Below are positions 571-64,000 of a stretch of DNA of 64,000 nt, in pieces. The notes beneath the pieces were generated by a model that was given only the letters and a program-made list of their open reading frames with translations, ran no database searches and had not been told where the DNA came from. The first letter of the stretch is position 1. Each line of letters begins with the position of its first letter. Origin of the DNA: Euglena gracilis (Eukaryota); NCBI GenBank assembly GCA_039621445.1, contig CP154954.1:39579816-39643815 (forward strand). The letters are read 5' to 3'. Both the position numbers and the translations under genes were made by a program.

Positions 571-589
571 TAATAGGTGTAAATACAGA

Positions 590-1058: not shown

Positions 1059-1127
<69 letters not shown>

Positions 1128-1128: not shown

Positions 1129-1146
1129 TAAAAATAATATATGCAG

Positions 1147-9875: not shown

Positions 9876-9909
<34 letters not shown>

Positions 9910-28575: not shown

Positions 28576-28584
28576 GGACCCAGG

Positions 28585-29030
28585 GGATTATACCCTAAAC
28601 TTGAACATCTTTCACCAAATTCTGAAATTTTTCAGAAAGGACATTACCCCAGAGGTGGACATGTTTTGCACACCCAGCAACAAAAAATTTCCCCAGTTTG
28701 TTCGTCGATACCCCCACCAAGGGGTTTTGCTGGTGGATGCCTTGAGGGCCGATTTGAGGGGCCTCCCCCCAGTTTATGCCAACCCTCCCTGGAGCATCAT
28801 TCCCCAGTGGGTTCAGAGATTAATGTTAAACCCAGACCTAACATGGCTGTTGATCGTACCCCACTGGGCTTCGACATCATGGTGGCGCCAATTAATGTCA
28901 AACAGACAGCCAGGCAGCAAAGTTTTGCTGGTCCCCCCCCCCCCAATGGGGTCTATTCACCAACTGCTGGGGGGAGGAGATGCCCCCCCCCCAAGGTGGA
29001 ATTTGGCCTGCTTGATTGTGTCAGGCAAAT
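28585..29030 (+). CDS. DIRS Dam-like N6-adenine methyltransferase-like domain
   Basis: YTL...VDMFCTPSN...VDAL...YANPPW...LLIVPHW...SWW...PPRWNL, the MT domain known in DIRS1 elements. Confidence 0.88.
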
Positions 29031-29935
29031 ATTACAATCCCAGGAAGTTTCGATGTCCAGTATCGACACTTACATAAAAAATCTGGGAAATGTCAAAAGA
29101 TATGGCTCAGCCTTCAGGACATTGATGGGCCAATTATTGCAAAAATGGGTGCCTCTGCAGAAGTGCACAGTCCCCAAGATGGCTGAAGCCATCCTTGATC
29201 TTGCTGTTCATAGCATCAACACTGAACGAAATGCATATGCAGCAGCCTTATTACTCCCAGGGTGGGTCTTTGAGATTTTCACCTCTTCTGGCTCCATTGA
29301 AAAGGAAGTGGAATGCCAATGTCTGCAAGTATGCCCACTTTTGGTACCCCACTGATTTCCTAGAAAACATCATGGGGAATTCCACACCCCTCTCAGACCT
29401 ATCTGTGAAAGAGCTCAGAAACAGACTCATCATCTGTTGGAGGCTTTTGGCCCTCCACAGGGGGGTTGATTTAGCCAGGACACAGCGAAAAATCAGTTTC
29501 GTGGGAGAAAAAATTTTCATTTTGTTGCAAAGGAAAGGGTGGCAATTCCCAAGATTGGAGGAAGTTTTGAATCTGCCACACACCCCCCTCATGAGCCCTT
29601 GGCATTTATTGCAAAAGTATGTGGAAAGGACAGCCCACATGGTTGGACACAAAAATAATTTGTTATGGTCTTTGGATGGTAAAAGACCGTTGACATCAGA
29701 AAGGGTGAATTCCCTGACCAGAGAAATTCTGCAACAGGGGGGGTGGACACCACCCACTGGAAACCCCACAGCACCAGAGGAGCTGGGGTTTTATGGTGGA
29801 AAAATGCTGGTTTGCAAGTGGAAGAAGTCCAGCAATTGGGTCAGTGGAAAAATTTTGGGGCCTTCCAAGCTCATTATTTAAGGCTGGGAGTCGTTTCAAA
29901 AATTAAAAATATTATGGCCCAAAGGGGGGTGCACA
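29030..29935 (+). CDS. DIRS tyrosine recombinase (two frameshifts)
   Basis: HRGVDL (R), QRKG (K), HSTRGAG (HxxR), LGQW and FQAHYLR (Y). Confidence 0.9.
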
Positions 29936-29937
29936 GT

Positions 29938-30039
29938 ACCTCACCATCTCGCAGTGCGGAGCCCGAATGGTCTCGGACTCCCACGACACAGGAAGGGGGA
30001 GGAAGGGACCAAGAGGGCGAAGCACAAGAAGATGGTGAG
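29938..30039. repeat. DIRS internal complementary region (ICR)
   Basis: Its reverse complement reads right end (...gtgggagtccga) fused to left end (gaccattcgggctccgcac...). Confidence 0.93.
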
Positions 30040-31057
30040 CCCAACCCTCCCACCCCAAAAATCGGCAGAAAAAGAAAACCATCCCAACCAGAAAAGGGAC
30101 CCCCAACCAAGCAGCCCCAACCGCCCACCCAGCAACACACCAGAAAGAGAAAACCATCCCCACCAGGGGGGGGGGCCACCAAGCGACCAAGGGAGAGGGG
30201 GGGGGGGGGGCGGCGCCACGACGGTTCAGCTTCGCCAAGGTGTCGGAGGAGGCCACCTCATCGCCAACTCCGGCAACAACGGCGCAGTAAGAAGCACCCC
30301 CCGCGCACGCACAAACACACCAGAACAGAACAGCCGGCAAGGAAAGCAGGACCTCACCATCTTCTTGTGCTTCGCCCTCTTGGTCCCTTCCTCCCCCTTC
30401 CTGTGTCGTGGGAGTCCGAATGGCAAAGAACAGGGGTGTCCAGAAACACCCACCTCCCGCCGGGGAACACTTGGACCGACCTGGGAGAATGGGGGGGGGG
30501 GATGGACCGGTGAGGGATCATTTGGCTGGTGAGGGGTGAAAATGCATGGACCGGTGAGGGGTCACATGCATGGTGAACCCAACACCAAAGTTGTTGGGAA
30601 ATCCCTGTTTTATCGTTGAAAATAAACCAAAAAATGCTCAGTTAATGATTTTTTGGAATATTTTTTTTCACGTAGAAATAAAGGGGAAATATGCAAAAAA
30701 TTGCCACCAAATTGTTTGGGAGAATGAGAACCCATTTCAAAGAAAATTCGAAAGGTTTTTTTGACTTTGAAAGAAAAGCGTCGCAAAAAAATGCAAAATC
30801 GGTAAAAAAAATTAGGCAAAATTCGCTTATCACAAAAGAAGAATAAAAAAACATAAAAACAATATGCAGAAATAATGCTCTTAAAAGTGCAGGGAAAACT
30901 GCGCAAAAACTTCATCCGTGGAATTTTTTTTAAAAAAAAACATGTGCGAAATGAGGGGGGGACTGAAAACTTTTTTATCTTCCTCTCCGGCTCCTGATCC
31001 GGGCAGCAGGACCGTGTGAAAAAGGGATCACAGGCAATCTGCTGGCCCCCGCGTCAC

Positions 31058-38498: not shown

Positions 38499-41400
38499 TT
38501 GCATGTCCACCACTGCGTTGCGGAACGGACAACCATTCTCAACAAGGTTTTTCAGATCGATGTGGACAATCAAAGGGTTTCCAACACGGAACTGGAATAT
38601 TTCTGGAAATATTTGCAGGAAATCAGCAATTATTGCCAACCTAATTTTGAAAGCGCGGGGAAAGACCTTCAGCATTTTAGAGAAATTGTTGACAGTACTT
38701 TGCGCATCCAACTCCCACAAAAATTCCAACAAATCAGTGAAACACTGCATGAAGCGGGAACGCGGAATGATTCTAAGTTTCTGCACGTGCAAGATGGTAT
38801 GCACCATCTTTTTACCGACGTTGAACCATTTTCAACAATGCTACTGCAATGGCAGCAACAGTTACACGCGCAAAATGCCACCCCAAAAATGCCGCAATCG
38901 GTAACTTTGTCGCGGTTGAGCATTTTGCCACACTCTCAGCTTATTTGGAAGACGGCCAACAAAGGATTTTGCTCTGTGCTCGCAAATCGAGCATTTGGAG
39001 CAATTTCAGGCGAAAGTGCAAGATAATTTTGTTCCCTGTATGCAAAGTCAGATTTTGGAGGGATGAATCATACAAATGGAGCAAAAATCCTGCCATTGTT
39101 CCGCCAATCAGGATGGATAAACCTTCTTGGACGCGAAAAACGCGGCTTGCGCATAATGGTTGGATTTCACGCAACGAAAATTGCAAACGGACATTGGCGG
39201 TATTAATGAAACCCATTGTACCTTGTCGTCCTGCACATTAGCGTAAATGTGCTCACTACCCAATATTTCGCGCGTTCGGATATCCGAGTCACCAGAAATT
39301 CGCACTTTTTACAGCAAAATGGTTGTTGACAACAAGGAAACCTTGCAAACATTTTGCCCGAGTTTGGTTCAACTTGAGGAATCTGTGAATCGGAATGCCA
39401 GATCCATGCAAGATGAGGTTTCACGGTTGGATGGCCTAATTTGTGCTTCGTTGGAAATGTCAACCGCGGAAAATTCGCGAACCACTGCAGAAACCCACAC
39501 CAAGACACCCCGCCAACTGCAAAGTTTTTCAAATGCCATAAGAGTGCTTTCGGGACAACTCCGGAATGTGCAGGAGTGCCAAAGAAATCTTGTCCAAAAC
39601 CTACACGCGGTTTTTGAAAAGCTGCCTGACCTGGAAGGTTTTTCCCATTACCACAAACGCATTAGGCATTTGGACACTGAGGTTGACCGTATTTGCGGCC
39701 AACTCCAGTTGGTGGAACATTTGGAAGAAACCGTACATGACTTGTCCGCGAGTTTGGATAAAGTGTCCACTGTGTTACCGGTTGTGCCACCACCTACCGC
39801 GGTAAGCGCTGCGTTTGTTATTCCAAATGTCCCGGAATTGCGTTCTCAGAATTCCGTTTCTGGAATAGGAGTCCCTACTTCTACCGCGAACACGGTACAA
39901 CCATCCGCGAAAACGCGTAATGTACCACCTTTGCCTTTGTCCACACCTCAAAACCACTTTTCAGATGATGTTTCCGATGAGGAAATTGATTCACTGCTCG
40001 AAAATTCGAGTCTCCACCAAGAAATTCATCATTCCACCCTTGTGCAAGGAATGTGCCAACACCCCACACCTGGTATTGGTTATGTGTCGCATTCGCAATT
40101 GGAATAACAGATCATCCTTCGGGTTTTCCGCGGGAAACTGCCACACCGGGAGAAGTTCACCACGTTTCTCGCGTTTACCGCAGGTAAATCCTGCCAGCCT
40201 TACACTTGGTGCGGCAAATACTGCACAGATCACATTGGAAACGGAAAATACGCCAAATGTGTTTGGTGTTAAGAATTACCCGGACCCAAACCGCTAGTAT
40301 ACAACAGAGGGTCAGCGGGTTACCAGAGAAACTTCAAGGGCACCGACGCAAACGCGAACAAGGTGAAACCTCAGTGGGACGGTGATCCAACCACACGGAG
40401 ACAATTTCTTCGGGACTTGGAGTACTACTGGGCACTAAAGGGACACACCCAAGTTCAGAATCCCGAGGTAGCCAAGATGAAATTAATTGATTGCCTACCG
40501 GGGAAGGAGCGAGAACGCGCACGTAAGTTGGTGATACGTAATGGCGTACCCTTTGATGAACTGGTTGAGCAATACGCTTCAATAAACTCAAGCTTGGTCA
40601 CCAGGATTACCCCGGAAAACAAATGACGACAAAGTGCGCCACCGGATTGTAAATGGAAATCCTTTGACCTTTGGTATGCCAAATGGTTAGCACCTTAGCG
40701 AGAAGCAAATGCGCGAACAATTCGATGCGGTTTTGTTGCATTTCACACCATCCCTCGTGAAGGATATCCATCGCAAGGAGTTGGCGTGGCACGTAATGAC
40801 TCTTTCACAACGTTAGAATTATGTGTCAAAGCAACTCAAGCTCACACAAGTTTTGGGACAAACACAGTCCGCTTTCCGAACGCATCTGAACACGGGAATC
40901 CCTGCGGGCGCGGGTAATGCGTTACAAAAATCACCCACGTCACCACGACAACCCACCATGGGTGCAAAAAAGCGGACTCAGCGTTCTTCACACCAATGCA
41001 CGGATAAGCTGTGCTTTTTGTGCAGAGCTAGTCACATGTCTCGGGAATGCCGGAACCCCGATGCCTGAAAGCGTATTGGAAGTCCAAGGGGCTCGACCAC
41101 CTCACGGAGATCAGATTCCTCGGCGTTTTCACGTCAATCGGGCGCTTGACGGTCCTCGGACAACTACTTTGGCGGCAGTAGGCCCAAGTCACTTTCACGT
41201 GATGGTCGGGAAACCCGTCCTTCTCAAGATCGGTCACCTGGTCCTCCTGCCAGAAAACAGGATTTCAATTGCTATTCTTCACGATCCCGATCGTGAATTG
41301 GATCATCCTTTTCGTGTGAGTCACGGGGTCAACCCCGGAACACCGCTCATGGTCCACAGGAAAACCGTTCACCACGACGGTTTGACGGTAGAACGGAGTA

Positions 41401-44400
41401 CCGTTCTCCCCGTTATGCGGAATCTTGTCACAAATCCCGTTATCCACTTTTGCGGTTCCAAGGAACACCACTCATCCAAATGTCCCAGATCTCGTTCCCC
41501 ACGTCCTGGCTACGGAAATTGCGGTAAGCGCCGCGAGGACCGTGGTACCTCCTCCAACCGGCAAACAGTTGGTTTCCAGGTACCTTGTTTGGAAGAGGAC
41601 ACTCCGGCCACGGGCAGGGAGGGGGATGAGACCTCGGACGGGTATTTAATGAGGCCCGAATGGCGGTGCGCTCATTGAATTCCACCAATTCCGCCAAAAA
41701 GTCCGTTGCCGGCTATGCGGCCGGTTCGGACTTGGAGTAGGGGTGCCCGAGGTCGGAGGGCACGGACCTCTGGGCTGATGAAAAGATGGAGGTAAGACGT
41801 GATCAACCTTGCCCCACCTGCCCATCCGCCTTCCGGTCGGTACACAGAATTATTTCGGGTCCCCTTCCCTCCACTCCACATTTCCGCTAGGAATGCTGAG
41901 AAAAGTAGGAAAGGGTTCATGGGAAAAGTTGGCATGCAAAAGCACTTCCGCCTGGCCCTTCACTCTGCGTTCCACCAATGTAGTTAATCGCCCAAGCAAA
42001 AAAATACGCATTCAAAAATTTTCCACCGAAGTAAAAATTCTAATTGACACTGGTTGTCGCATTGCACTGCTTTTTCGGTTGGGGTTCATTCCGACCCGTC
42101 TCTTGGTAAACGCCAAGGAACCGATCAAAATTACAACCGCGGAATACACCCCCATGTGCGCTGGTGCTTTGGGATGTATGCTCGAGGTACTCTTGCCCAT
42201 AATTCCCAGCATAATTCGCACCCCCAACAAATTTGCAACATTTCACCAATATTTGGGGTTACGAGGCCGGAATTCATGGGTCTGACGGGTAATGTTGGGA
42301 TACCCACATTTACGCCGATATGGATTTGTTGTGGATTGCCACTCACACGGTTTGCGCACAGCACCCACCTCCGCATTGCCACCCAAACCACCATCACCGT
42401 TGGCGTCCACCATGACGACCAACCCTTTGGCAACGCTTGGTGTCCACCATACCAACCACCGTTTTCCACACCCGGGTTACGGAGAAAGCCTCCCCCCTAC
42501 TCAATGACGCATCTACGTGCGTTACACATGAGGTAGGGCAAGCGAGTAGCGGTACACCAGCCGTTTCACTGGGTTCCAAGACGAAAGCCCAAAGGCCTGC
42601 AGTACGTATGGTAACGAGTACTCGCCCTGCTAAAGCACCACTCCGTTTTCCACCAGTTTTGCCGAATCCAGGCACACCTGTACAAGACTCACCGGCTAAT
42701 GCCGTCGACATCCACTTAAAAAAGTACCCGTTACATCACCTCACTTCCTCCAATGCGTGCACTGCAGGAGAAATTCCACCCAATCGGATTTCGATTGTGG
42801 ATGTTTAGTTCAAAAGGCAATTTCAAAAACGAAGTCCACACCCCAGGATACAGTTGGTTGTAGCCCGCAATGCGTGGAGATACACCAAGTACTCCAACAA
42901 CGCGGATTAGCCTCGTTGTTTGGAAACGCGAAATGCGTCCTTCCTAATCAGAATCTCGATCACACTTGGTGTGTATTTGATGCCGAATGGGGAAAACCCC
43001 AGCCTGTCCAAACTCCCTTGGGATTAACCCTTGAGGTGGTAGAAGACAGCCCGCATGTTTGTGGATCCATTCATTGTGTTCCTTCACTCCAACACGGAAA
43101 GCGGGTGCATGAATACGCGAGACGTGTATTGAATGCTTTCGATTTTGGTCAATATCGCATTTTGGAAAGGCGGTTTTCCAAAATCACGACATTGGCTGAT
43201 TCCTTTGATTGGATATTGATGCCTTCTCATCCAAAGCGCATGCCCGTTTGCCACGTCATTAGTCACAACACTCCAACGCATTTGATAAATTTTGGGGTGA
43301 TACGGTTTTTTGGATGCACACAAAACCAAAGGTTCTCGAATGTGCGGTTGATAAAATTCTGCGGGATGAAGCCGGTGGAGTTATTCTCATACCCATCATT
43401 CCGGGTGCGGAAAGGTTCACCTAACTATCGTACATCCGTTTTCATTGGTGTTATTTACCCACTAGTGTACTGATTTTCGACGACTTTTGTGGTAAAATGT
43501 GGTAAAAAAATACCACCCTTACAAAGAACACATTTTGCGTGTATGGTTCTTCGATGCAATGGGAATTTCCGAAATCGCGGTGCCGAGGAAGCTCAGTAGC
43601 CACCGGGATGGAACCCTGGCAGTTTCCGCGGTCATCGAGAGTGCAGGTCAGCATCTTAAGTCAGCGAATTCTGTTCACGGATCACCGCAAATTTCATGAT
43701 GTGCTGGAAAAAGCAGTATACGAGTGCGAAATCGACCCCGCAATACGCGGTCTGTTCGGCGTTTGCAAGTCTGAGCTTAAGGAAGGAGCTAGCCGGTGCA
43801 CAGAAAATTATTTTGTTGTTCGAGAGAACGTTGAAAGGCTCTCAATGAAATGATTGAGAAGTTTATTCAACGCAACTGGACTGTATCCTCGAAAAGTGAG
43901 TGCACATACCAGGCAATTTTAGTTCCTAAACCCCCAGACCCCTCAGGTCAGAAGAAATGGAGACTGGTGCTGGATTACCGGTACCTGAACTCCCGGACAA
44001 GGGATGGTCTCATCCCGCTCCCCCTAGCGGAGGTTTCGATCACTAAGCGACTGGAAAACCGGTTGTGGTCAATTTTTTTTTCGATCTGAAGAATGCTTTT
44101 CACAAAATGCACTTACACCCCGAATCACAACCATACACGACTTTCGTACCAATGGACGGTACTCCCCACGGGTGTTAGGAGTGGCCCAGCCATGTTTCAC
44201 CGCATGATCCAATGGGTTTACCGCGACTTACCGTTTGCCATTGTGTATATTGATGATGTGCTGGTGGGAATACCACCAGCATCCGCAAAATCGAGCGGGG
44301 ATATCCTCGACACACACTTTCACCGTGTTTGCGCGGTATAAACCGCCTTCCAAAAACCTGCGCTTTTCACGAAGGGCGCGAAAATGCATTTGTTTTGCGA

Positions 44401-44830
44401 GCTTATAAAATTTTGCAGAAACATCCTCAGCAATGGATTTCAGAACGCCGCTCCAAGCAAACTTGGGGACGTTAAGAAATGGACCCCTGCAGTAATCAAG
44501 ACGATTACCCACCTCAAAGGATGTTTGGGACTATCCCAATACTATGCAATATACAGGAGGGAATTCGCGTAAATCACGGTGCCCCTCACCAAACAGCTCA
44601 AAACGCAGGCGGTTGACAACACCATGTCATTTGGGATGACCAAATGCGCGAGGCCCTTGAGGAAATCAGAGTTTTGCTTTTGGAGAATGTTGTACTCGAA
44701 GTTTCGGACCCGTACGAACGTTATGTGCTGGAAGCCAACAGCAGAGATTACGCTGTTGGCGGAGATCTTAGCCAGCAATACGCGTCGAATGAACTCCGAC
44801 CTGTGGCTTTCTTCAGCAGAAATTAGCAGG
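38499..44830 (+). mobile_element. decayed Ty3/Gypsy-like retrotransposon A (gag-PR-[MTase-like]-RT-RNaseH), 3' truncated
   Basis: Zinc knuckles CFLCRASHMSREC (~41010) and HFCGSKEHHSSKC (~41445). Protease ILIDTG (42046). RT WRLVLDYRYLN and YIDD (44246-44257). RNase H DYAVGGDLSQ..RPVAFFSR. Confidence 0.88.
43150..43520 (+). pseudogene. Dam-like amino-methyltransferase-like domain in Gypsy A
   Basis: Manual translation DIDAFSSKAHARLPRH*SQHSNAFDKFWGDTVFWMHTKPKVLECAVDKILRDEAGGVILIP. Motif IV is degenerate. Confidence 0.65.
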
Positions 44831-44866
44831 GAGACGCCTTGTTTGGCTGTTTTGGACACTGAGGTC

Positions 44867-45036
44867 TAAGCAATTGGCCGGTCCGAAGCAAGCAAATGGC
44901 CGGTCCGAAGCAAGTAAATGGACGCTGGAACGGGCAAGCAAATGGCGTGCGTGGCCAAAGCAAACAAATGGCTGCTAGTGCGGCTGAAGCAAGCAAATGG
45001 CTGGTAGTGCGGTCGAAGCAAGCAAATGGCTGCAAG
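44867..45036. repeat. minisatellite with core gaagcaagcaaatggc
   Basis: About 7 imperfect units of 20-33 bp between two converging Gypsy fragments. Confidence 0.85.
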
Positions 45037-46139
45037 CGCGCCTTAGCAGCCACCACCACCTCCAATTAAAATTGTGGTTTTTTTTTGGTACTGGAAAAGT
45101 CTGGGACACATTCAGAATATTTGGCTGTGTACGGCTCAGTGTATTCTTTGTCAAGCAATCCTTGTGTGGTTTTTTCAAGTACCTCTTTCCTCTTACCGTG
45201 CATGAAAAAAGGATTCTGTCTTGTTGGCTTTGCCCCCTCCTTCAACGGTACGTGTGCATATCCATATTGCCCTCTTTCCGGGGGGTCCGGAAATGGCGAT
45301 GACCGAAATACCGTCCCCCTGTAACCCTGCAATACTTGTTCACTTAATTTAGCCACCCGTTCATCCACTTTTTCGTCCTCCCATTTCTTGCAATTCTCAT
45401 TTGGTTGACAACTTGCACTGGGGGGTCAATTCCCTCCAAATTTGTGGCAATATCCCCCAGGTCCTCGTCACTCCAAAATTGCAATTCCTGGTCCACCACT
45501 TCCAAAAGCAAACAAATACCAAGTTTCTGCAAATTAAACGAAGCCCCGTACGCCACAGTCACATTGTCTTCTGAAAAGTTTGTGTCATCCCCCAATTTTT
45601 GCGGCCCCTCCGTCTTTCAACACCCCGCAAAAAAAAGGTCGCGGCTGTCTTTCACAAACGCCTTGTGGAGTGTAAAACTTCCCATTTTTGCCCCCGCTAA
45701 TAAAAGAATAAGAAAGAATTTCGTCAACTTTGATGTTTGCCTCATAAAATTTATCCTCATATTCCACACACCCAGGACCCCTTTCTGCATTCCATTTTTG
45801 TTGAACGATCCCTTTTACCTTTGCGCATATGCTCCCCCCGCCAAAGTTTGCCCATTGGCCGTCTCAAACCTTAACAGGTCCTTAGTAAGATACATTAGGT
45901 GGTCCCGTATCAACCCTTGTTGAATGAGGTTTGCCTAAGCCCCCGTGTCAATCAAAACTTGGACATTTTTCCTCCCCATTTGCCAACCGTATCTGTGTTT
46001 TTAACAGCAGTTGTCTGTACTCTCCAATATTCTTCGCACCTCCCCGGGTTTTCGTCCCCCTCGGCATTTTTTTTTCTTCAGCCGCACCAATTTTTTCTTC
46101 CCTGGGGCTGCCCCCCCCTGGGAGGGTTGCCTTCTATCA

Positions 46140-46500
46140 TAACCAATCAATAGCCCCACATCCCCACAAAGGGTATCCCTCAAAATCCTCCCATCAGCCC
46201 CAAACAACTTTGTCCTCTAGGGAAAATAAATCTTTTTGACAGCAATGGCCACAAGTTTTTTCACCAACCTCCTACTCCAGTCTGGGTGAATAGAAATTAC
46301 CCGACAATTGGAATTTTGGCAAATCATCCACCTCAGGCCACAAAGTACAGGCGGCCACACAAAGTTTCCTCCTCCCCCAATCCTTTTTCATGGCATCGTC
46401 ATTCTCCCAATAAAATTTTCACACCTGCATTTTGGCTGGTTGCTAAAAACAATCCCGTTCGCCTACCAAGAACTCCTCAATAGAAAATTTTTCCTTCATA
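46140..46500 (-). pseudogene. Dam-like amino-methyltransferase-like domain in Gypsy C
   Basis: Frameshifted pieces RDCF..SQNA, DDAMKKDW, LWPEV, VISIHPDW, VKKIYFP, TKLF are collinear with the NPPF domain at 51430-51840. Confidence 0.55.
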
Positions 46501-46554
46501 ATAATCCTCCCCTAAACTTTTTTTTTTTTTTCCCAACCCTTAGCAACACTCCCG

Positions 46555-46990
46555 TTGTTTGGGCATCCTCCAATTTTTTTGAGTTCCAACTGTCATTCCA
46601 TATCCCAGCTTTTCACGGTGAATCCTCCCCCTAGGAATCAAATTCGGGCAGGTCTGGCCCTCACAAAGTTTGTTTTGTAGCGTGCTCAAATTTTCTCTCC
46701 CCCACTCCCCCAGATATGGGTGGTTTTTGATATCCCCAGTCTGAAAACTGACAACAGTCAACATTGAAAAAAGTCAAATTTTTAACACAGGGTCTTTTAC
46801 GCAAAAGCCCATGACGGGGACTTTCAATCCACCACAACTTTTGTTTGAAGTATTCGACAGTTTCCAAAGTTTTTTTGACCAGCCGATGTGCCCCCTCCAA
46901 TTTTCTGATTCCAAACGTTTTCGCCAAGCTGTATTCTGGACGTCTCAGAAAATTCTTTTCTTTTTCTTGAAATCCTCGGATTCCCAATTT
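46555..46990 (-). pseudogene. C5-cytosine DNA methyltransferase-like domain (virus/phage small-MTase type)
   Basis: PEYSLAKT..RKLEGAHRLVKKTLETVEYFKQKLWWIESPRHGLL...VDCCQFSDWGYQKP, then HIWG, NKLCEGQTCPNL and WRMP in adjacent frames. Matches the pattern PPCTEYS.AKT / WxIENP / VDYC..GY.K.T / YRIP. Confidence 0.75.
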
Positions 46991-47639
46991 TCTTCATATT
47001 TCAATTGTCCCAAAGACGTAAACACAAATCAATGTGAAGACATTGAACCAGAGCGAGCAGTCTGCGGGGGGAAAGTTCGAATTAGGAATACAAAAACCAG
47101 TCCGGCAGTAAGGTAAGCGGTCAGCAAAATAGTTCGCATACGCCCCCCATGCCAGAGGACGCGGCACCACAGGCACATGACGAAACGGCATCACACCACA
47201 GAAAAAAATGGCTTTACTGTTTTTCAAGCACTGATGAATGGTGTTCAACATGAATTGTCCACAAAAAGGTTCAGAACGACAAGTGTCAACGCAAAGTAAG
47301 GTAAAAGACGTTCCTTCCGACGTTCAACTTGGTCCCTTCACTTCTTGGTTGGCTTTTCATTCGAAGGTAACACAAACCTGGGCGAAACTCCTTGCATCAA
47401 TGGCAGGTTTGTGTCTGAAAGCCTTCAAAGGTTAGACAACAATCCACCCATGGCGAGGCGGGTTGGTGTCTCCTGAACCGAAAAACAATCCAAAAGGTCC
47501 TCTGGGGTGGCATGACTTTCCTCCCGCGTGACTGAAAGCACGATCAAAACATTTGGGGGGAGCTCAGGCTGTCTCTTGTGCTGCCAACCGCCATTCACAT
47601 TCTGAAACGTCACAAAACATTCTGAGCCCCTGGCGTAGG

Positions 47640-50600
47640 ATCGGTTGTAAATTGTGATCCACACAATAATTCTTGAAAATCTTATTCATTCTGCCACCTG
47701 GTTGCACAAAAGAAGCCACAGGCTCTCATGTACTGCTGCTTGCCGGAAAATTCTCCCACCAAACCAATTTCCATCCCCCTTGGTACTTGTGCTTCAAAAT
47801 CTTGTAAACATCGTAAAAACCCAGTTGTGCTTGTTCTTCTTCTGACATCTGAAGAGGGGGTCCCCTACCTGGTCTGAAATGGGGGTGTCACCCTCCATTG
47901 GGGCTCCCACAACCACATCACTGGTCAAAAGGTCTGGGTCTTCTTCCAAAAGACTTTCTTCATGTGAAGCAACCTCCCACTTTTTTGCAGAAACCCGAAG
48001 AGACATCAATGGCCCCTCCCAAAGATGGACTGCTAGCAATTTGCACTGATTTGAACCTCGGTTTGAGAACCCGAAAAGGTCCTTGCCAGGGCGGGGAAAG
48101 CTTGGGCCATCATGTGTTTGGCCATCCTTTGTTGTGCACCAAATCATAGTCATCTTTATTTTTTGCTGGTTCCCTCCCTTTGTTGGCACTCTCAAAATCT
48201 TTTTTCCTCAATTCTTTCAATCTCTGGGAAGCTCTTTCTTGAATCTGAATTTGGGCCAAAAGCCGGGAATGGGTGTCTGGGTTTGTCACCGGTTCTGGGG
48301 GTAATACAAACCTCCAAGCTGTTCCCAAAAAAATGTCATGGCGTGGCAACATTGTTGTCGGGGAAAACTGCACACTCATCAAAAACGTACAATAAGGAAT
48401 AAATTGAACCCAACTTTTGTCCTTGGAAGATATGTTCAAAGCTCGCATATGCTTCAAAAACATTTTGTTGTCATTTTCAACCAAATCGTTTGATCTGGGG
48501 TTCCGGGGTACCGAAAACGATAATTTCACATCTAGACCTTTAAAAGCTGTCTGATAAAAACAACTGGGTTGTCTGAATCCGACGTAGTTGTCATACCTCA
48601 CAACGGACGATTTTCCAAAAAACTGAAATCCACCGGTCCAAAATGAGTCTCAAAACACCTTCTCCGGGTACCGTTTTCTGTGTGGGAATGAATTGGAAAA
48701 AAATGGGACAAATTGTCGACCAAAGTCAGCACATAGTCAAAACCATTGTAGGGGTCCATTTGCACAAAAACGAAACACAAAACTTCATTGCTCACTGTTG
48801 GAACGGGTTAAGAACAGACCTTTCCACGGTCGCTGGGGCGGTTTTGTTTTGAAAGGGTGCAAATTTCATATGTCATCACAATGGCCCTGCAAATTTCCAA
48901 CATGTCTTTCTTGGAAACCTTGGACTGAAAATGGCTCATAAAAAATCAGTGTCCTTTCAGCACCAACATGGTTGCTTGCCTTGTGACATTCATCCAAACA
49001 AACCTTCAACAAATGAGACGGAACAACCAATTTTCCTTCACAGTACATGGCCTTGGCAGATCAGAACCAGAAGTTATTGTCAATGAAACAGGGTTTTGAA
49101 ACCTCCAGTTTCTGCCAAAATTCTTTCAGTTCTGAACTCAAATAATCCTTTTCAGACGCTTGCACTCTGTGGGACAAGCTGAAAACATTTTGTGAAAACA
49201 GGTCAAGCTGAACATCCACTTTCTGAAAAGCGTTCCTTGCTACTTACTCAAAATGAATTTCAAATTTGTTCTCAAAATCAGCACGAGACAAAAAAATCAC
49301 AGAATTCATTTTTGCAACCTGCCACGTGAACAAATATTCAGTTTGAACTGGTGTAAAAAAAACATACATCCTTCTCAGTCGTTTGTTGAGAGGGGATTCA
49401 CCCTTCTGAAAAGAGATGGCTGCCACATTGTCTGTGAACCGCACAATTGGCAGATTTTGAAAATTCCTTGTTTGTGAAGCAATGACCAACACACTTCTCA
49501 AAATTTCCTTTTCCCACGTGGTGTATTTTTTTCTTGCTTCACTCCATTTCCAGTTGTAGTGGCCCAAGGGCACCAACCTCATTTCACTGGGGTATTTGCT
49601 TGGGTCCCATCCACCTTCACACCACTTGTTCGAAAATTCTCAGGAATTTGTATTTGTTGGAGGGTTTGCAACTGAAACAACGCAGAACCACCTCCTAAAT
49701 GCGAACTGTCAGTCACCAAAACAATCTCTCCCGAAGTTCTTGTGGTATCCAAAACATCAAGGGAAGATAATTTCCTTTTCAAAGCATAACAACTCTCCTT
49801 CTTTTCAGTCCACTTCCATTTCACATTCTTTTTCAGAAGACCTGTCAGTGGGGCTGAGTCAAATGTAAACCCTTCCATGTGTCTGCGGTAAAAATTAATG
49901 GCTCCCAACATTCGCCTCAAATACCTTTGATTCTGAACTCGAAAACTCAAAATTGGTTCAGTGTTCCTCTTGTTTGCCGCCACATTCCCTATCCCAACGA
50001 GAAGCCCAAGTAGTCAGTAGTCTTATTCAGAAAAGAACATTTGCTCGATTTGACTCTCACTTGGTTCTTTCTGCAACTTCAAACCACTTTTCCAAAAGAT
50101 ACGAATGGTCCTCCTCAGAGTTTGCACTAACCCCTGTGTCACCGGAAAAGAAGCCAGGTGTCCATCCTTCAAAGTCTTTTTCACCCTCAAAACCGTTTGG
50201 CATTGGGAGGTTCGGATTTACATCAACTCCTGAAAAATCCCTGGGGCATTCATCAACCGAAATATTATCCTTTTCGGACGAAAACACCTCCCTGAAGGAA
50301 TGCAAAATTCAGACAAACCTGCTGCGCTTTTTGTGATTGCGATTTGCCAATACCCACTCCTCATGTCCAGGGCACTTTTGAACCGACACTTGGCCAAACT
50401 TTCAGTCCGAATTTCCATGTTTGGCAAAAACCCTGCAAGTGCCTTGATTCTGGAATTCAATTTTCTGTAATGAATGACCGTCCTTCTGGTACTTGACCAT
50501 TTTTTTGTCCACCAAAAATGTGGGGCTGCACACCTGGGGGATTTCACCAACTGGGAACTGCTCAATCAACCCTGACTTTAGCAATTCTTCACACTGAAGA

Positions 50601-53500
50601 TCAATTACTTTTTCATCCTCCTGGGGCATGGGCCAACACCTTTGCCTTAGCGGTTTGCCTTCCCATTCAGGCTTCAGCTATGTCCATCAAAACAGGCAGG
50701 GGGGAAGACTCAGAAATTGTGGCCACTGGTCCAAAAACATCCGAAAATTTCACCAAAAGCTCATACAACCTGGGGTGGTCTCTGAATTTCTCAAATTCTT
50801 TATCAAATTCTCCAATCAGGTTCTCAGTAAACAATTTGCTGCTTTTTCACTGAGCATTTGTTTGGGCCCACAAAGTCAAAATCTTTTCATGTTAATCTTG
50901 GGAAATGCTCTTTAGTTTATCCATCTTGATTGTTGCCTTGGGAGTCTTCACAGGTTTTGCAAACTGAACCTCTTCCACAGGCCTGGACAGCTGGAAAAAC
51001 TTCACATCCACATCTTTTCTCATTCCTTAAAAAGGCTCAGCTCACTTTCAACGTCCTTTGTCAATTCACCCAAAAAACTGCTGTTTTCATGCTCACTCAT
51101 TGGTTCACACACCCGAACATTGTCCAACCATTCTTTCACCTATTCCTCTGATTCTTTGGGGGGAACAGTCCACAAAGGAAACCTTGGAGTTTCAAAAACT
51201 TGCTGGTCTGCAGGTGGATTGGCATGCTTGGGTGCCTGCTGCTGGGTGGACATCAGGAACATCTGGGAAATCCACTTGCATTTCATCATCCACTGTGGGG
51301 TACTTCCTGGTCTCACGTCTCAGTTCATCCAAATTCCAATTTCTTGAAACTTTTCTGAGCCAACTGACAATTTTGTGGTCCAAAAGCTCAAAATGCACTT
51401 TGAATTGCACTGTCTCCACCACAGTCACAAGAGTGTTCCACAGAGGGGAGGGCACCTTTTGCACCTGCCACACCACAAACAAGGGAACCCCACTTGAAAT
51501 TTTAACCATGGCCACCGTTACCCTTTCAAGCAGGGGGGACCGGTACTGGTCCACCCAGTCTGGGTGCACCAAGACCGTTTTTGTTTCATCAGCGCACAAC
51601 CTGGTCACCACTGTGCTTAGTTTGCTGAAGGGTGGGTTTGCTCACAGAAACTTTGAAGCACCAAGGTCACACAACAATTATTCCCATGAATACCTGTAGG
51701 CTGAATTCCCTTTCGTCATGTACAAAGACTGTGTGTCGTTCAGGTGGTTTGCAAAAAGATCAATGCAAATTTGGCCCTCAGAAATCTTCAATTTTTCCAT
51801 AGCTTTTGACTTCATTGGCCTGACCAAAGTGTAACTTTTTGTCTTGAAAATTTTGAAAATGCTTTTGATAGTGTGGTCCCCATCATGGCACTGAAGTAAA
51901 AACTCCTCATCTCTGATGATAATGCTGGGGGGGTCTGGTCAACCACCCTCCAAAAAACTCACTTTCTATGAATTCAGTCCCCAAAACTGCCTCAACGCAC
52001 AAGTATCCACCACAACAGCTGTCAAATTCAAAACCTTAGACCCAAACTGCAAACACATGTCGACGTCCCCTCGGGAACAGTGTACTCCCCGTTGTCGATG
52101 TGCAGGGGTACCACTGCACTCCGCTGAAATTTATTCTCAGGAACACATTTCTTAGAAACTGCAGTAATGGTGGCCCCTGTGTCCAAAATGGCTTGAACAT
52201 CCTTTCCATAAACCTTCACTGGCAACAGATAATTTGGAGCCACAATTTTCTGTCGATTTTGTCACAAAAAACGGCATTATGAAGACAGATGGTGGTCAAG
52301 AGAAAAGATTGAGAAAAATAAGGCAGCAGCCCAGAAAAGGCAGGCAAATGGACCCCTTCGGTTCAACCCCAGGTAGTGCAAACCCAGGTTACCCCCTTGG
52401 GTGACAACCACAAAAAGAGAAAGGCTGATGCTTTGCATTTCCTCCAGATGGTGTGTAAAACTTCGTGGGGCTGGGGTGTCATCAACTTCTCTTTCACCCT
52501 TGCATTTGCCTTTTCCTTTGCCTTCTCCTTTTCCACCAAACGTTCTACCTTTTCTAGATTCTGGGACACTTTCACCACCTTCTTCTGATTGGTCAAAGGG
52601 GCTTTCAATCAGGGACCTGAGGTTTCCTTTTTTCAACAAATTCCTCTCCAACCAATCTTCGAAGCTGTTTTCCAAAATTGTTTTTCTCAAATCTGTGAAA
52701 ATCACAGAAAGATCATGTCTGCATACATTCTGGTGTGTAATTTCCTCAGCAAAAGCAGAAACTTTTCGTGTTCACTCGTGTCCTGGGGGCTCAACCTTGC
52801 CATCAAATTGTCCAACTCATTGAAAGTTTTCTTGATGTCTTGTGGTTACAGGGTTCTGTGAAAGTGCTGGCAATTTCTCAATGGCAGACCTGAAAGTCAT
52901 GCCATTTTCCAGTGTTGCAAACAATTTTAAAATTTACAACAGCACTTTTAAAAAATCCTCATTCTCATCAAACACTTTTCAACAAGTTCGTTCAACAACG
53001 TTCCAACAGGCAATCCTTTTTCTGGACACTTCCAAGTGTACCAGCACCAGTTAACCTCAACCATCTGCCAAAATCTTTCACAAACTCTGGCCAGTTTGCG
53101 CCATCAAACTCTGGCAATTTCACAGGGGGTAAACTTGAATTTTGGGTTGAACTTTGGCTGGGGTTTCTGGAGTTTGGTTCCACAACTTGCTTCAGAGATG
53201 TTTCCACCTGGGTGAGGGGTTCACAGGGGTAAACACGGACTGACTGCTGCTGGCTGACTTGCTTTCCAATTCTTGCAACCTTCTTTACAAATCTTCAATT
53301 TGACGACTTTTCTGCAGATCACTTTCACAAAATCTCAACCACTGGCTCTGAAAACTGGGAGAAACAATTGCAAACCCAACAAGCCAAACAAAACTGAAGA
53401 AACCAGAACAGAAAACCAACCACCTGGTTCAGGACCAGGTCAGAAAGATGATGAAGATCTTGCCTACACCAGGATCTTGTTCTTGACCGCAAGGAGATCA
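47640..53500 (-). mobile_element. decayed chromodomain-bearing Ty3/Gypsy element B (gag-PR-N6MTase-RT-RNaseH-IN-chromo)
   Basis: Gag LPEFDGANWPEF. PR AILDTGAT (52170-52192). RT LDMRSGYWQI and NAPGIFQ. RNase H VTDSS and YTTWEKEIL. IN CHKASNHVG, LVDNLS and PRSNDLVE. Chromo-like FYDVYKILKHK...EPVASF (47690-47830). Confidence 0.92.
51430..51840 (-). pseudogene. Dam-like N6-adenine methyltransferase domain between protease and RT of Gypsy B
   Basis: One frame with two stops: SYTL...IDLFANHLN...NSAYRYSWE*...FL*ANPPFSKL..VVTRL...TVLVHPDW...PLWNT. NPPF at 51627-51638. Confidence 0.85.
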
Positions 53501-61510: not shown

Positions 61511-63890
61511 TCACCTGGAGTCGAGACTGCACAACACTTGCCCCCACAGGGCTGCGACCCCCCTACTCAGGCCTTTGCAGGCCCCCCCCCCCTCTGGTGC
61601 TGGCTTTTTCCTTTTTGGGCGAGTACACAATCCTGCCCTCTCATTTTGACAATCACCCTCCTTGATGCACTCTGATCTCCCTGTCAGCTGAACTGGGCTG
61701 TTAAGGGATCCCGAAACGTGGCAGACCCCAAACATATCTGCAAAAGTCCCAAGGGACGTGCCCAAAATTGGCTGTGCGTGGGGGGTTCTGGCTCCCAAAT
61801 CAACGATTTTCAGCCTCGTGCGAAAATCTTCATTCCCCCCATCAAACACTGGACTCAGAGTCACTGATGGCAGAAAAATCGACTCTCCCCCCCATTCCCA
61901 CGGGAACTCCTGGGCACCCAACGGTGGTGGGGGAGGATGTGCCGTCGGCAAATCCCCTTGCGGACCCCCCATGATCTGGATATGGGGAATCAACACTGCT
62001 GTCCGAGCGTCTGCTACATGCGTGACACATTCTATGCCCGACTCTGCCCAAGACCTGTCCCACCCAGGGGAATCTTGTGGGTTTCCCGAACCCCCGGTGG
62101 GCATGCTGGGCTGGGCTATCAAACTCGCGGTGGGTTTGGGCAAAGCTGAAACCAATGGAATGGGGGGCTGGGGTTCGGCCTCAACCCCCACTAAATCCTC
62201 CCCCCTCCCTGCTGCCTTCGCCCCGATTCCTATCACAGGAAATCGTCCTGTGACGGCAGGACATTCACTGGATGGAAGATTGAAATTCTGCTGGCTGCCC
62301 CACTGGACTAGCTCTTGAACTGTCGGTTCTGGCCGAGCCGTCGGTTCTGGCTGGGCTGGCCCCCCTGCAGCTTGCTGGGGCTGAGTTGGCAAGGGCTGGG
62401 CTGCCCCCTGCCCACTCGACACGTGACACATGTCTTGTGAACTCGCAGAAGGGGTGGCTGGGGAAAAAAGACCAGGTGGACTGTGACTCGGAAGTTGCTC
62501 ACCCAATTCCCTCAGAGAATGCATGCGATCCGAACAAGACCGCAACATTTCAGATTATGCCAACCTCTTTTTCTTGCAATTTTCAGCCTCCGCACGAAAT
62601 GTTTCCTCCCTTTCAGAAGCCAGACGCATTCTGTTGGCCCAGCCAGCAGGACTGACGTCTGTGCCTGCCGTCCCTGCCGACATTGCAAACCCTGCCTGAA
62701 ATTGCAATTCTGATTCTGGCTCCACGACTGGACTTGAAGCTTGTTCACCGGCTGACCGCACTGACTCTGGGGCAACTGATTGGGGAGAGGCCGGATTATG
62801 ATTATTTGAACATGCACTTCCCAGTTGAAATTGCTTCTCTGAAACTGGCCCATGGACCCTCCCCAACTCTGCCAATCCCAGACCATTTTCACCAAAACAA
62901 TGCTGGCTGGTCGGCTGAGCTGTCTTTTGTGTTACTGACTGGAGCTGGTCTAGCTTGTCGACAGTCGGCTGTGGCTGAGCTGAGCTGTCGACCACTGACT
63001 GCTGCTGGGCTGGCCCCACGACAATTGGCTGGTGCCGGGTTGGCGATTGCACGATGGGCTGGGTTGGCAATTGCATAATGGGCTGGGCTGGCTTTTGCAT
63101 CATGGGCTGGGTTGGCCCCGTGATGGGCTGGGCTGTTTCTCGCATCATGGGATGGGCTGGCCCCATGATGGGCTTGGCTGGCTCTTGCATCATTCACTGG
63201 GCTGGCCCATGCATAATTAGCTGGGACAGTGCAATTTCTGGGCTCCTCTGACCCAAAAACTGCTGGCCGGTTGACTGGGCCGGCTCCTGAATGACGGGCT
63301 GGGCTGGCCCGTGCATGATTGGCTGGGGCACTGCAATTTCTGGGCTCCTCGGACCCAAAAACTGCTGGCCGGTTGACTGGGCCGGCTCCTGCATGATGGC
63401 CTGGGCTGGATCTTGCATGATTGGCTGGGCTGGCCCGTACATGACTGGCTGGGGCACTGCAATTTCTGGGCTCCTCTGACCCAAAAACTGCTGGCTGGTT
63501 GACTGGGCCGGCTCCTGCATGACGGGCTGGGCTGGACCGTGCATAATTGGCTGGGGCACTGCAATTTCTGGGCTCCTCTGACCCAAAAACTGCTGGCTGG
63601 TTGACTGGGCCGGCTCCTGCATGATGGGCTGGGCTGGCCCGTGCATGATTGGCTGGGGCTGGACTGACTCCTGCGCAGCTGGCTGAGCTATCCCTTCTGC
63701 AGCTGGCTGGAGTTGGGCTGGCCCCCCGACTGCTGGCTAGGGTTGGGCTGCCCCCCCGACTGCTGGCTGGGGCTGGGCTGGCCCTGCGTTTGGCTGTGCA
63801 ATTCCCAATTGAAATTGCAAACGGGCTGCAACTCCCAAACTCTCGTGGGCAAAAACTAGCTGACTCATTTCTGCTGGCTGTGGCTGGCAC
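61511..63890 (-). pseudogene. long Pro/Gln/Ala-rich ORF relic, probably retroelement ORF1
   Basis: Overlapping long minus ORFs with repeated PAQP(I/V)M units. No catalytic motif seen. Confidence 0.35.
62990..63790. repeat. hierarchical coding minisatellite (24-bp ggctgggctggcc..atgat subunits in 4 higher-order ~110-135 bp units)
   Basis: gcaatttctgggctcctc..acccaaaaactgctggc recurs at ~63231, 63333, 63459 and 63561. Confidence 0.9.
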
Positions 63891-64000
63891 TGAGCTGGCG
63901 TTGGGCTGGGCTGTGCAATTCCAATCATAAATTGCGACTCAGCCCCCCTAATTTCCAGACCCCCTGGGACTGAAAATTGTTGAACACCAGCGTCACACCT

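What the first reader, a model, noticed from the sequence alone, without database searches (positions are those of the whole stretch)
45066..47010. Gypsy-like retrotransposon carrying two DNA methyltransferase-like domains (C5-cytosine and Dam-like N6-adenine) in tandem before its protease
Seen: on the minus strand the order is C5-MTase-like (46990-46555), Dam-like (46500-46140), protease VLIDTG (~45950), then RT N-terminus. Deviations from the C5 consensus are single-base changes (ENP to ESP, VDYC to VDCC, and probably the catalytic Cys to Arg in xPEYS), as expected for a decayed copy. Motif I is lost by truncation. Known: this compact C5 family resembles small viral/phage cytosine MTases. 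Cytosine-DNMT-bearing retrotransposons are reported in Symbiodinium and Klebsormidium, and Dam-like domains in DIRS1. Inference: this may be an LTR element that writes both 5mC and an amino-methyl mark, possibly on its own cDNA. I do not know this architecture in Gypsy elements.
Basis: partly seen in the sequence, partly recalled or inferred. Interest (0 to 1): 0.88.

Follow-up and report, generated by a model that had tools for sequence, protein, structure and literature searches.

The report
Dead dual-methyltransferase LTR retrotransposon fragment
This stretch is a broken, truncated piece of a jumping gene whose intact relatives carry both a cytosine and an adenine DNA methyltransferase ahead of their protease, a design first described in a 2026 preprint, so it is a real but non-functional example of a recently reported kind.

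Summary
On the minus strand, 46,936 to 45,069 is one collinear remnant of a polyprotein. It reads compact C5 cytosine methyltransferase, then Dam-like adenine methyltransferase, then aspartic protease (DTG), then the RT N-terminus. A single 588-aa metagenome protein (P0159) aligns across all four parts (E 2e-72). The C5 piece has 514 relatives at E<=0.001. Of the 150 scanned, 78 hit PF00145. In my census, 31 of 210 relatives also carry a Dam-like domain in the same predicted protein. A model of an intact relative has both folds: DNMT3A Z 14.6 and E. coli Dam Z 9.0.

The window copy is dead. It has at least 12 frame changes and 4 in-frame stops, and it is cut at both ends. It lacks C5 motif I and the catalytic Cys. 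The supposed Cys-to-Arg change is probably flanking repeat, because the homology starts exactly at a repeat junction at 46,936/46,937. It also lacks the Asn of NPPW.

LTR elements carrying both DAM and DNMT domains ("EpiLTRs") were described in a May 2026 bioRxiv preprint for Euglena gracilis and Cymbomonas tetramitiformis. The idea is therefore in print. The host of this window is unknown.

Two results go beyond the preprint's main text: relatives show eight different C5/Dam/protease orders, and the nearest non-retroelement relatives of the C5 module are virus-like.

The parts
46555..46936 (-). Remnant of a compact C5 cytosine DNA methyltransferase. It runs from just after the PC motif to the C-terminal RxP region. 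Motifs I-IV, including the catalytic Cys, are absent. It has ESP for ENP and VDCC for VDYC, and two frame changes near 46,736-46,704.
   Evidence: Profile hits E 7e-32 and 5e-6. tblastn with P0001/P0002: 60-61% identity over 72 aa. Frame path. Column counts.
46118..46508 (-). Remnant of a Dam-like (PF05869-type) N6-adenine methyltransferase domain. The DCF motif is followed by a stop. The Asn of NPPW is missing. The HPDW strand is kept. There are 3 in-frame stops and several frame changes.
   Evidence: Dam profile E 6e-6. tblastn P0151 1e-7 and P0153 7e-24. Segment frames. Reading of the three frames.
45600..46070 (-). Linker and retroviral-type aspartic protease. DTG lies at 45,949-45,941 and a stop follows DTGA. 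There are frame changes inside the domain.
   Evidence: tblastn P0010 5e-7 and P0072 6e-14. 67% identity to P0159 over 45 aa.
45069..45565 (-). Pre-RT linker and reverse transcriptase N-terminus. It is cut off before the RT core motifs.
   Evidence: P0159 residues 520-583 at 67% identity. P0127, P0108 and P0021 RT N-termini at E 2e-6 to 3e-9.
46937..47019 (.). Flanking high-copy repeat that abuts the 5' break of the fragment. It is not part of the C5 domain.
   Evidence: Summed word depth about 1.6e5 in this bin, against about 150 for contigs identical to the fragment. Four RNA reads match from 46,937 upward and are unlike the window below it. The profile does not align here.
44868..45040 (.). 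Tandem repeats of 22 bp and 29 bp at the 3' break of the fragment. They separate it from a plus-strand DAM-LTR element that ends near 44,870.
   Evidence: Tandem Repeats Finder. Self-blast.

Best explanation
Window 46,936 to 45,069 (minus strand) is a 1.87-kb internal pseudogene fragment of a Ty3/Gypsy-like LTR retrotransposon family. In this family the pol polyprotein starts with two DNA methyltransferase modules. The first is a compact (~200 aa) C5 cytosine methyltransferase. The second is a shortened Dam-like N6-adenine methyltransferase. Protease and RT follow, and in relatives on longer contigs RNase H and integrase follow those.

In intact family members the catalytic residues are conserved (shown). 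They probably act as enzymes released from, or working within, the polyprotein, on the element's own DNA or its insertion site (inferred, not shown).

The copy in this window does nothing. It is cut at both ends by other repeats. It lacks the SAM-binding motif I and the catalytic Cys of the C5 module. It lacks the Asn of the Dam NPPW motif. It carries at least 12 frame changes and 4 in-frame stops. It lies in a mosaic of other decayed DAM-bearing LTR and DIRS elements in a CpG-depleted genome.
For: Family membership and linkage:
- Collinearity with one protein, P0159, at E 2e-72.
- 514 relatives at E<=0.001. Of the 150 scanned, 78 hit PF00145, 5 hit PF05869 and 2 hit RVT_1.
- Census of 210 relatives with my own profiles: 31 have C5 and Dam in one predicted protein, and 13 of these are in the window's order.
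- L003 pol reads Dam (45.5 bits), RVP, DNA_methylase, RVT_1, RNase H. L007 pol reads RVT_1, RNase H, H2C2, rve, SH3 after PR-C5.

Folds of an intact relative:
- The AF2 model of P0151 has pLDDT >90 for both domains.
- VIA: DNMT3A Z 14.6, M.HhaI Z 13.8, E. coli Dam Z 9.0 (107 aligned, rmsd 2.6), PCIF1 Z 10.6.
- Foldseek against PDB: DNMT3 and HhaI at E ~1e-8.

Conservation in relatives:
- The catalytic Cys is in 143 of 143 aligned relatives, and the E of ENP in 143 of 143.
- NPP[WFYC] is in 24 of 26 Dam domains.

Placement of the window copy:
- Its C5 falls in an SH-aLRT 95 clade of 12 rows, 9 of them C5>Dam.

Decay of the window copy:
- Frame path and stops.
- Contigs from two DNA runs are identical to the window over 46,722-46,981, 45,079-45,309 and 45,295-45,623. 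The frame changes are therefore in the DNA.
- CpG observed/expected is 0.59.
Against: - RNase H, integrase, LTRs and target-site duplication are not present for this copy. The Gypsy assignment therefore rests on relatives.
- For the exact C5>Dam>PR subfamily, no relative reaching the integrase was recovered.
- Blast found no LTR pair.
- The short ORFs alone gave no Pfam, PHROGs or PDB hit.
- The junction at 46,936/46,937 rests on four RNA reads and on depth steps, not on a second assembled copy.
- No enzymatic activity has been shown for this family. The preprint's assays of eukaryotic DAMs in E. coli were negative.
Confidence: 0.9

Rival explanations
1. The C5 segment is the 3' appendage of the upstream minus-strand DAM-LTR element (PR-Dam-RT-RNaseH-INT, 52,261 to 48,110), as in the Cymbomonas EpiLTR where the DNMT sits at the 3' end of pol. 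The Dam-PR-RT that follows would then be a separate element.
For: On the minus strand the C5 remnant lies about 1.2 kb downstream of that element's integrase. The preprint describes a 3'-appended DNMT in C. tetramitiformis.
Against: Single predicted proteins read C5>Dam>PR(>RT) without a break (P0159, P0152, P0153). C5 homology starts abruptly at a repeat junction at 46,936/46,937, not in continuity with the sequence upstream. None of 151 relatives matches 47,000-48,100.
Confidence: 0.04
2. The apparent architecture is a chance juxtaposition of unrelated fragments (nested insertions or misassembly), not a real element design.
For: The region is a mosaic of truncated elements with very high repeat depth. 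The preprint warns of nested insertions and assembly artefacts in Euglena.
Against: The same order occurs in 13 of 210 independent relatives from other assemblies, and in one protein that spans all four parts. Contigs from two independent DNA runs match the window exactly across several internal boundaries.
Confidence: 0.03
3. The C5 segment derives from an endogenised DNA virus gene rather than from a retroelement.
For: The closest structural match in the viral library is the 218-aa MTase of Tetraselmis virus 1 (E 1e-18, TM 0.81, 32% identity). AT-rich metagenome contigs carry stand-alone homologues next to a D5-like primase-helicase. The nearest ESM Atlas clusters are viral, at score 0.88, which is a lead only.
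Against: In the tree, 16 virus-like rows lie across a 99% SH-aLRT branch from all 123 retroelement-side rows. The window groups inside the C5>Dam retroelement clade. It is also collinear with Dam-PR-RT.
Confidence: 0.02
4. The locus is a live or recently live element that methylates cytosine and adenine, as the first reader proposed for the element.
For: Catalytic motifs are conserved in relatives. Some retrotransposon DNMTs (SymbioDIRS-Dnmt3) methylate CG de novo in yeast (PMC5890265, section 10).
Against: The copy has at least 12 frame changes and 4 stops, and is missing motifs I-IV, the NPPW Asn, and the RT core and everything after it.
Confidence: 0.01

Closest known systems
EpiLTRs: LTR retrotransposons with DAM, DNMT and a chromodomain in Euglena gracilis and Cymbomonas tetramitiformis (bioRxiv 10.64898/2026.05.21.726589; I read the abstract and sections 7-10, and searched passages of the introduction, section 5, the discussion and the methods)
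   Same: An LTR-type retroelement polyprotein that carries both a Dam-like adenine MTase and a C5 cytosine MTase. The genome around it is rich in mixed DIRS and DAM-LTR elements, as that paper describes for Euglena.
   Different: The main text does not give the domain order of the Euglena elements, and supplements are closed. I therefore cannot say whether C5>Dam>PR>RT is the published layout. The Cymbomonas layout (DNMT at the 3' end of pol) is different. A chromodomain cannot be assessed in this truncated copy. The host here is not known. The preprint places the DNMT as sister to DNMT4.
DAM-LTR and DIRS elements with a Dam-like domain (same preprint; DIRS Dam-like domains are also cited in PMC5890265, section 6)
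   Same: The Dam-like module has NPP[FWY] and a following PxW strand. Three more such modules lie in this window, at 28,172-29,074, 43,263-43,421 and 51,641-51,195.
   Different: Those elements have no C5 module.
DNMT-bearing retrotransposons of Symbiodinium (SymbioLINE-Dnmt, SymbioDIRS-Dnmt3) and Klebsormidium (KnitGypsy-Dnmt3), PMC5890265 (abstract and sections 6 and 10 read)
   Same: A C5 MTase domain sits inside a retrotransposon coding region. The proposed role is self-methylation of new copies.
   Different: Those carry Dnmt3-type or orphan DNMTs and no Dam-like partner. Here the C5 module is a compact ~200-aa form. No sequence comparison with them was possible.
Compact stand-alone viral C5 MTases (Tetraselmis virus 1 putative cytosine MTase A0A2P0VN45; AT-rich metagenome contigs such as L019)
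   Same: Same compact fold and signature (FSGxGS, PPC, ENP, DYCxxSDWGYxKPTR): TM 0.81 and 32% identity, with a 236-aa ORF in L019.
   Different: They are stand-alone genes in DNA-virus-like contexts (D5-like primase-helicase), and they lie on the other side of a 99% branch from the retroelement copies.

Membership tests
EpiLTR (DAM + DNMT LTR retrotransposon, 2026 preprint) | C5 DNMT domain encoded in the element's polyprotein | tested here: met
   The window remnant matches the family profile at E 7e-32. 78 of 150 relatives hit PF00145. The model of a relative matches DNMT3A at Z 14.6.
EpiLTR (DAM + DNMT LTR retrotransposon, 2026 preprint) | Dam-like adenine MTase domain in the same polyprotein | tested here: met
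   Window 46,508-46,118. PF05869 scores 45.5 bits in P0001 and in L003 pol. E. coli Dam Z 9.0.
EpiLTR (DAM + DNMT LTR retrotransposon, 2026 preprint) | LTR-retrotransposon backbone: PR, RT, RNase H, DDE integrase, LTRs | tested here: inconclusive
   Only PR and the RT N-terminus are present in this copy, and no LTR pair was found. Relatives L003 and L007 have RVT_1, RNase H and rve, but they belong to other sub-branches of the C5 tree.
EpiLTR (DAM + DNMT LTR retrotransposon, 2026 preprint) | Chromodomain | not testable with these tools
   The copy is cut before the RT core. The L007 pol tail looks chromo-like by eye, but Pfam gave no Chromo hit at E<=0.001.
EpiLTR (DAM + DNMT LTR retrotransposon, 2026 preprint) | DNMT in the clade shared by the Euglena and Cymbomonas elements, sister to DNMT4 | not testable with these tools
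   No reference sequences are at hand and the supplements are closed.
Active C5 cytosine DNA methyltransferase (PF00145) | Motif I FxGxG (SAM binding) and motif IV PC (catalytic Cys) | tested here: not met
   The window matches the profile only from position 68 of 212, and upstream ORFs score E>10. Cys is present in 143 of 143 relatives.
Active C5 cytosine DNA methyltransferase (PF00145) | Motif VI ENV/ENP | tested here: not met
   The window has ESP. N is found in 131 of 143 relatives.
Active Dam-like N6-adenine methyltransferase (PF05869) | Asn-Pro-Pro-aromatic catalytic motif | tested here: not met
   The window reads VW-PP with the Asn missing, followed by a frame change. 24 of 26 relatives have NPP[WFYC].
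Ty3/Gypsy LTR retrotransposon | PR-RT-RNaseH-INT order with RT_RNaseH and rve domains | tested here: inconclusive
   Met in L007 and partly in L003. Not assessable in the truncated window copy.
DIRS | Tyrosine recombinase instead of DDE integrase | tested here: not met
   No recombinase lies next to the fragment. L007, a relative, has H2C2 and rve. The separate DIRS-like element at 26,000-30,500 is unrelated in DNA to the fragment.

The most novel reading that the evidence does not exclude
The family seen here may be a lineage of dual-methyltransferase LTR elements distinct from the two published ones. Its MTase pair sits at the N-terminus of pol. Its compact C5 module would share ancestry with stand-alone MTases of algal giant viruses and small virus-like contigs, rather than with cellular DNMTs. 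The C5, Dam and protease modules have been reshuffled into eight different orders among environmental protists.
Probability: 0.3. Interest if true: 0.55.

Novelty: new member of a known kind. Interest (0 to 1): 0.35.

Why it matters
Retroelements that carry their own writers of 5mC and 6mA bear on how transposons deal with host epigenetic control. This copy is dead and teaches nothing about mechanism.

The search it triggered does add something. The dual-MTase design is common in environmental eukaryote sequence: 31 of 210 relatives have both domains in one predicted protein. The modules are shuffled freely. The C5 module's nearest non-retroelement relatives are viral. Those points could sharpen the origin story given in the 2026 preprint, provided they are tested with its sequences.

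Tried and rejected
- Pfam, PHROGs and PDB sequence searches with the window's short ORFs found nothing relevant.
- No whole genome is held for this window. Intact copies in the host could therefore not be sought.
- Self-blast found no second DNA copy in the window. tblastn found no second C5 copy.
- No LTR pairs were found around the fragment or its neighbours.
- No tRNA and no Rfam family was found in the window, so there was no taxonomic handle.
- A PDB sequence profile search gave only weak DNMT1 matches, E ~3e-4.
- Earlier scan notes: nothing for this genome or for P0159. One note on a diatom Gypsy element with a dead C5-like fold came up. I did not test it, and it concerns a different position in pol.
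- Sequencing runs: no RNA holder was listed. Laying two RNA runs, sampled at about 5-6%, gave 6 and 4 reads, most of them on the flanking repeat. This says nothing either way about expression.
- The host organism is coded in the run table and I did not try to name it. A euglenid or green-algal host is a guess from the literature only.
- ESM Atlas hits scored 0.88, below the 0.9 level, and are a lead only.
- The preprint's main text does not state the domain order of the Euglena EpiLTRs, and its supplements could not be read.
Full report
**What is there.** I read the three minus-strand frames of 47,350-44,950. I also aligned relatives segment by segment without gaps. Together they show one collinear coding remnant:

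| Module | Window coordinates (minus strand) |
|---|---|
| C5 methyltransferase-like | 46,936-46,555 |
| Dam-like | 46,508-46,118 |
| Basic linker and aspartic protease (DTG at 45,949-45,941) | 46,070-45,600 |
| Linker and RT N-terminus | 45,565-45,069 |

The window's short ORFs alone gave no relevant Pfam, PHROGs or PDB hit. The 110-aa ORF 46,661-46,993 was then searched with phmmer against 1.84 billion representative proteins. It found 514 proteins at E<=0.001 and 158 at E<=1e-10. The best was 8.9e-23 at 59% identity.

**What the relatives are.**
- I scanned 150 relatives with Pfam: 149 of the 150 best hits (P0108 was left out) plus P0151. At E<=0.001, 78 hit PF00145, 5 hit PF05869 (Dam), 2 hit RVT_1 and 1 hit the RT-RNaseH models.
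- Individual proteins show the modules fused. P0001 and P0151 read C5 then Dam. P0010 reads C5 then protease. P0018 reads C5, RT, RNase H. P0036 reads Dam, protease, C5, RT N-terminus.
- A second search with P0151 residues 170-538 gave 76 proteins at E<=0.001, nearly all from metagenome assemblies without names. One is filed under Genlisea aurea on a 2.5-kb contig, and I did not verify its origin.
- P0159, a 588-aa metagenome protein, reads C5>Dam>protease>RT N-terminus in one frame. It aligns to window 46,900-45,186 at E 2e-72. The linkage is a property of the family.

**Census.** I built a C5 profile from 48 relatives and a Dam profile from 5 seeds. I used simple motif matches for the protease and for RT. 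The 210 relatives sort as follows:

| Order in the predicted protein | Count |
|---|---|
| C5 only | 141 |
| C5>PR | 26 |
| C5>DAM | 9 |
| PR>C5 | 9 |
| DAM>C5 | 6 |
| PR>DAM>C5 | 6 |
| C5>DAM>PR | 4 |
| C5>RT | 3 |
| PR>C5>DAM | 2 |
| DAM>C5>PR | 2 |
| C5>PR>DAM | 1 |
| DAM>PR>C5 | 1 |

- 31 of 210 have both MTase modules in one predicted protein, in eight different orders. 13 of these are in the window's order.
- These are gene calls on short contigs, so 'C5 only' mostly means a fragment.
- The motif matches miss some domains. P0127 has RVT_1 by Pfam but was counted without RT.

**Whole elements.** A scan of metagenome contigs returned 35 loci.
- L003 has a long gag-like ORF. Its pol reads Dam (PF05869, 45.5 bits), RVP, DNA_methylase (21.7 bits, just under the cut-off of 22), RVT_1 and RNase H.
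- L007 has gag and then PR-C5. Its pol reads RVT_1, RNase H, H2C2 zinc finger, rve core and an SH3-like integrase tail. It ends in a tail that looks chromo-like by eye but gave no Pfam Chromo hit.
- The backbone is therefore Ty3/Gypsy-like.
- For the exact C5>Dam>PR subfamily, I recovered no relative that reaches the integrase.

**Folds.**
- An AlphaFold2 model of P0151, made with a 103-row alignment, has pLDDT above 90 for residues 170-376 and 388-521. The N-terminal 161 residues are disordered.
- Foldseek against the PDB puts DNMT3A/3B, M.HhaI and DNMT1 on top, at E ~1e-8.
- For the first domain, VIA-align gives DNMT3A Z 14.6 (203 aligned, rmsd 4.8), M.HhaI Z 13.8 and DIM2 Z 12.1.
- For the second domain, VIA-align gives PCIF1 Z 10.6 (126 aligned, rmsd 2.9) and E. 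coli Dam Z 9.0 (107 aligned, rmsd 2.6).
- In the viral library the best match is the 218-aa putative cytosine MTase of Tetraselmis virus 1 (E 1.3e-18, TM 0.81, 32% identity). Several phage N6-adenine MTases match the second domain.

**Conservation.**
- In 143 aligned C5 domains, the catalytic Cys, the Ser of EYS, the Glu and Pro of ENP and the Cys of DYC are invariant. The Asn of ENP is present in 131.
- Of 26 Dam domains that cover the motif, 24 have NPP followed by W, F, Y or C.
- This is what a domain under selection for catalysis looks like. Activity itself is not shown.

**State of the window copy.**
- Relative to P0159 the reading frame changes at least 12 times between 46,900 and 45,186. 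There are in-frame stops after DCF, after MQV, after YFP and after DTGA.
- The C5 profile is matched only from position 68 of 212. Motif I and the PC dipeptide are therefore not there, and upstream ORFs do not score.
- The window has S where relatives have the N of ENP, and C where they have the Y of DYC.
- In the Dam part, the Asn (and the Leu before it) of the LNPPW stretch are missing, and a frame change follows.

**The junctions.** I laid two DNA runs and two RNA runs on 44,000-48,500.
- 2,755 and 1,975 DNA contigs fit at 95% identity or more. The whole stretch is therefore made of high-copy repeats.
- Contigs identical to the window, at depth about 150 and about 70, cover 46,722-46,981, 45,079-45,309 and 45,295-45,623. 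The frame changes in those parts are thus real DNA, not errors of this assembly. One of the runs may, however, be the assembly's own source.
- Summed depth is about 1e5 in 46,869-47,019 and in 47,171-48,227.
- Four RNA reads match from 46,937 upward and run on unlike the window below that point.
- The repeat junction is therefore at 46,936/46,937, exactly where C5 homology begins. The 'RRP' before EYS is most simply the end of the neighbouring repeat, not a mutated 'PPC'.
- At the other end, the RT N-terminus stops at 45,069 against 22-bp and 29-bp tandem repeats at 44,868-45,040.

**Surroundings.** The Dam profile hits three more places in the window:
- A DIRS-like element at about 26,000-30,500 on the plus strand, reading RT, RNase H, Dam-like and a further ORF.
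- A plus-strand element at about 39,250-44,870, reading gag-like, PR at 42,031, Dam-like at 43,047-43,421, and RT and RNase H at 43,793-44,620.
- A minus-strand element running from 52,261 to 48,110, reading PR, Dam-like with ANPPF, RT, RNase H and integrase.

CpG observed/expected is 0.57 for the window, 0.59 for the finding and 0.20 for the DIRS-like element. TpG and CpA are in excess, as expected in a CG-methylated genome.

**Origin of the C5 module.**
- Of the 35 loci, 12 have 46-63% G+C. Of these, 4 carry an RT match and 2 a Dam match.
- The other 23 have 23-38% G+C. They carry a stand-alone C5 ORF and no RT or Dam match.
- L019, one of the 23, has a 236-aa C5 ORF next to a D5-like primase-helicase.
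- I built a tree from 144 rows. These were the window, 117 of the 210 proteins (those covering 170 or more profile positions) and 26 of the 35 loci. The rest were left out as too short.
- The tree puts 16 AT-rich loci, plus 5 proteins, on one side of a 99% SH-aLRT branch, and all 123 other rows on the other side.
- The window sits in a 95% clade of 12 rows, 9 of which are C5>Dam.
- This was a quick search with SH-aLRT support only. The root is arbitrary, so no direction of transfer can be read from it.

**Literature.**
- De Mendoza et al. 2018 (PMC5890265; abstract and sections 6 and 10 read) described DNMTs in Symbiodinium LINE-like and DIRS-like elements and in a Klebsormidium Gypsy element. 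They showed CG methylation in yeast by the SymbioDIRS-Dnmt3 domains only.
- Fernandez-Moreno et al., bioRxiv 10.64898/2026.05.21.726589 (May 2026; abstract, sections 7-10 and searched passages read), describe DAM-LTR lineages and 'EpiLTRs' that combine DAM, DNMT and a chromodomain in E. gracilis and C. tetramitiformis.
- They place the DNMT as sister to DNMT4. They report that eukaryotic DAMs did not raise 6mA in dam-deficient E. coli.
- A full-text search for 'EpiLTR' finds only that preprint. So does a search for Euglena gracilis with LTR retrotransposon, methyltransferase and DIRS.
- Its main text does not give the domain order of the Euglena elements, and I could not see its supplements.

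**Verdict.**
- The dual-MTase LTR design is real and recurrent, but it is now in print.
- This locus is a dead fragment of it in an unidentified host. I file it as a new member of a known kind.
- The points worth carrying forward are the breadth of the family in environmental data, the free shuffling of module order, and the virus-like nearest relatives of the C5 module.

Noticed in passing
window 26000-30500 (+): DIRS-like element with long open frames reading RT (RVT_1, E 4e-10), RNase H and a Dam-like domain with ANPPW, followed by a further 251-aa ORF that gave no Pfam hit. CpG observed/expected is only 0.20.
   Followed up: partly
window 39247-44870 (+): LTR-type element reading gag-like, PR (ILIDTGC at ~42,040), Dam-like (43,047-43,421, NPP motif lost), RT and RNase H. 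It is cut off at 44,870 by the tandem repeats that also end the finding.
   Followed up: partly
window 48110-52261 (-): LTR-type element reading PR, Dam-like (ANPPF at ~51,640), RT, RNase H and integrase (H2C2 and core). It is decayed, with CpG observed/expected of 0.38. Its 3' side (47,171-48,227) has summed word depth of about 1e5 in two DNA runs.
   Followed up: partly
window 7900-20700: Paired tblastn hits about 6.8 kb apart (7,994/14,794; 9,457/16,250; 10,294/17,102) and about 8.8 kb apart (11,384/20,184; 11,873/20,673). Near-identical ORFs at 8,806-9,591 and 15,596-16,168 also suggest a large tandem duplication.
   Followed up: no
window 61845-62180 (-): Weak match (E 0.05) of the C5 profile to a GFGKPTRF-containing stretch inside a 347-aa ORF. 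It may be another decayed C5 remnant, or chance.
   Followed up: no
L019 9992-10702 and neighbours; 23 AT-rich loci in all (L011, L012, L014, L016-L035): AT-rich metagenome contigs (23-38% G+C) carry a stand-alone compact C5 MTase of the same family. L019 also has a D5-like primase-helicase (D5_N and DUF5906), so it looks like a small DNA virus.
   Followed up: partly
relatives P0001-P0210: The C5, Dam and protease modules occur in eight different orders among the 31 proteins that have both MTases. This points to repeated reshuffling within pol.
   Followed up: partly
window 62555-63938 (-): Long open frames made of a repeated PAQPIMQEPAQSTSQQFLGQRSPEIAVPQ-like unit in a 58% G+C region. Its nature is unknown.
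   Followed up: no
window 484-1182: Long compound microsatellite that reads as IY/LS repeats in translation.
   Followed up: no
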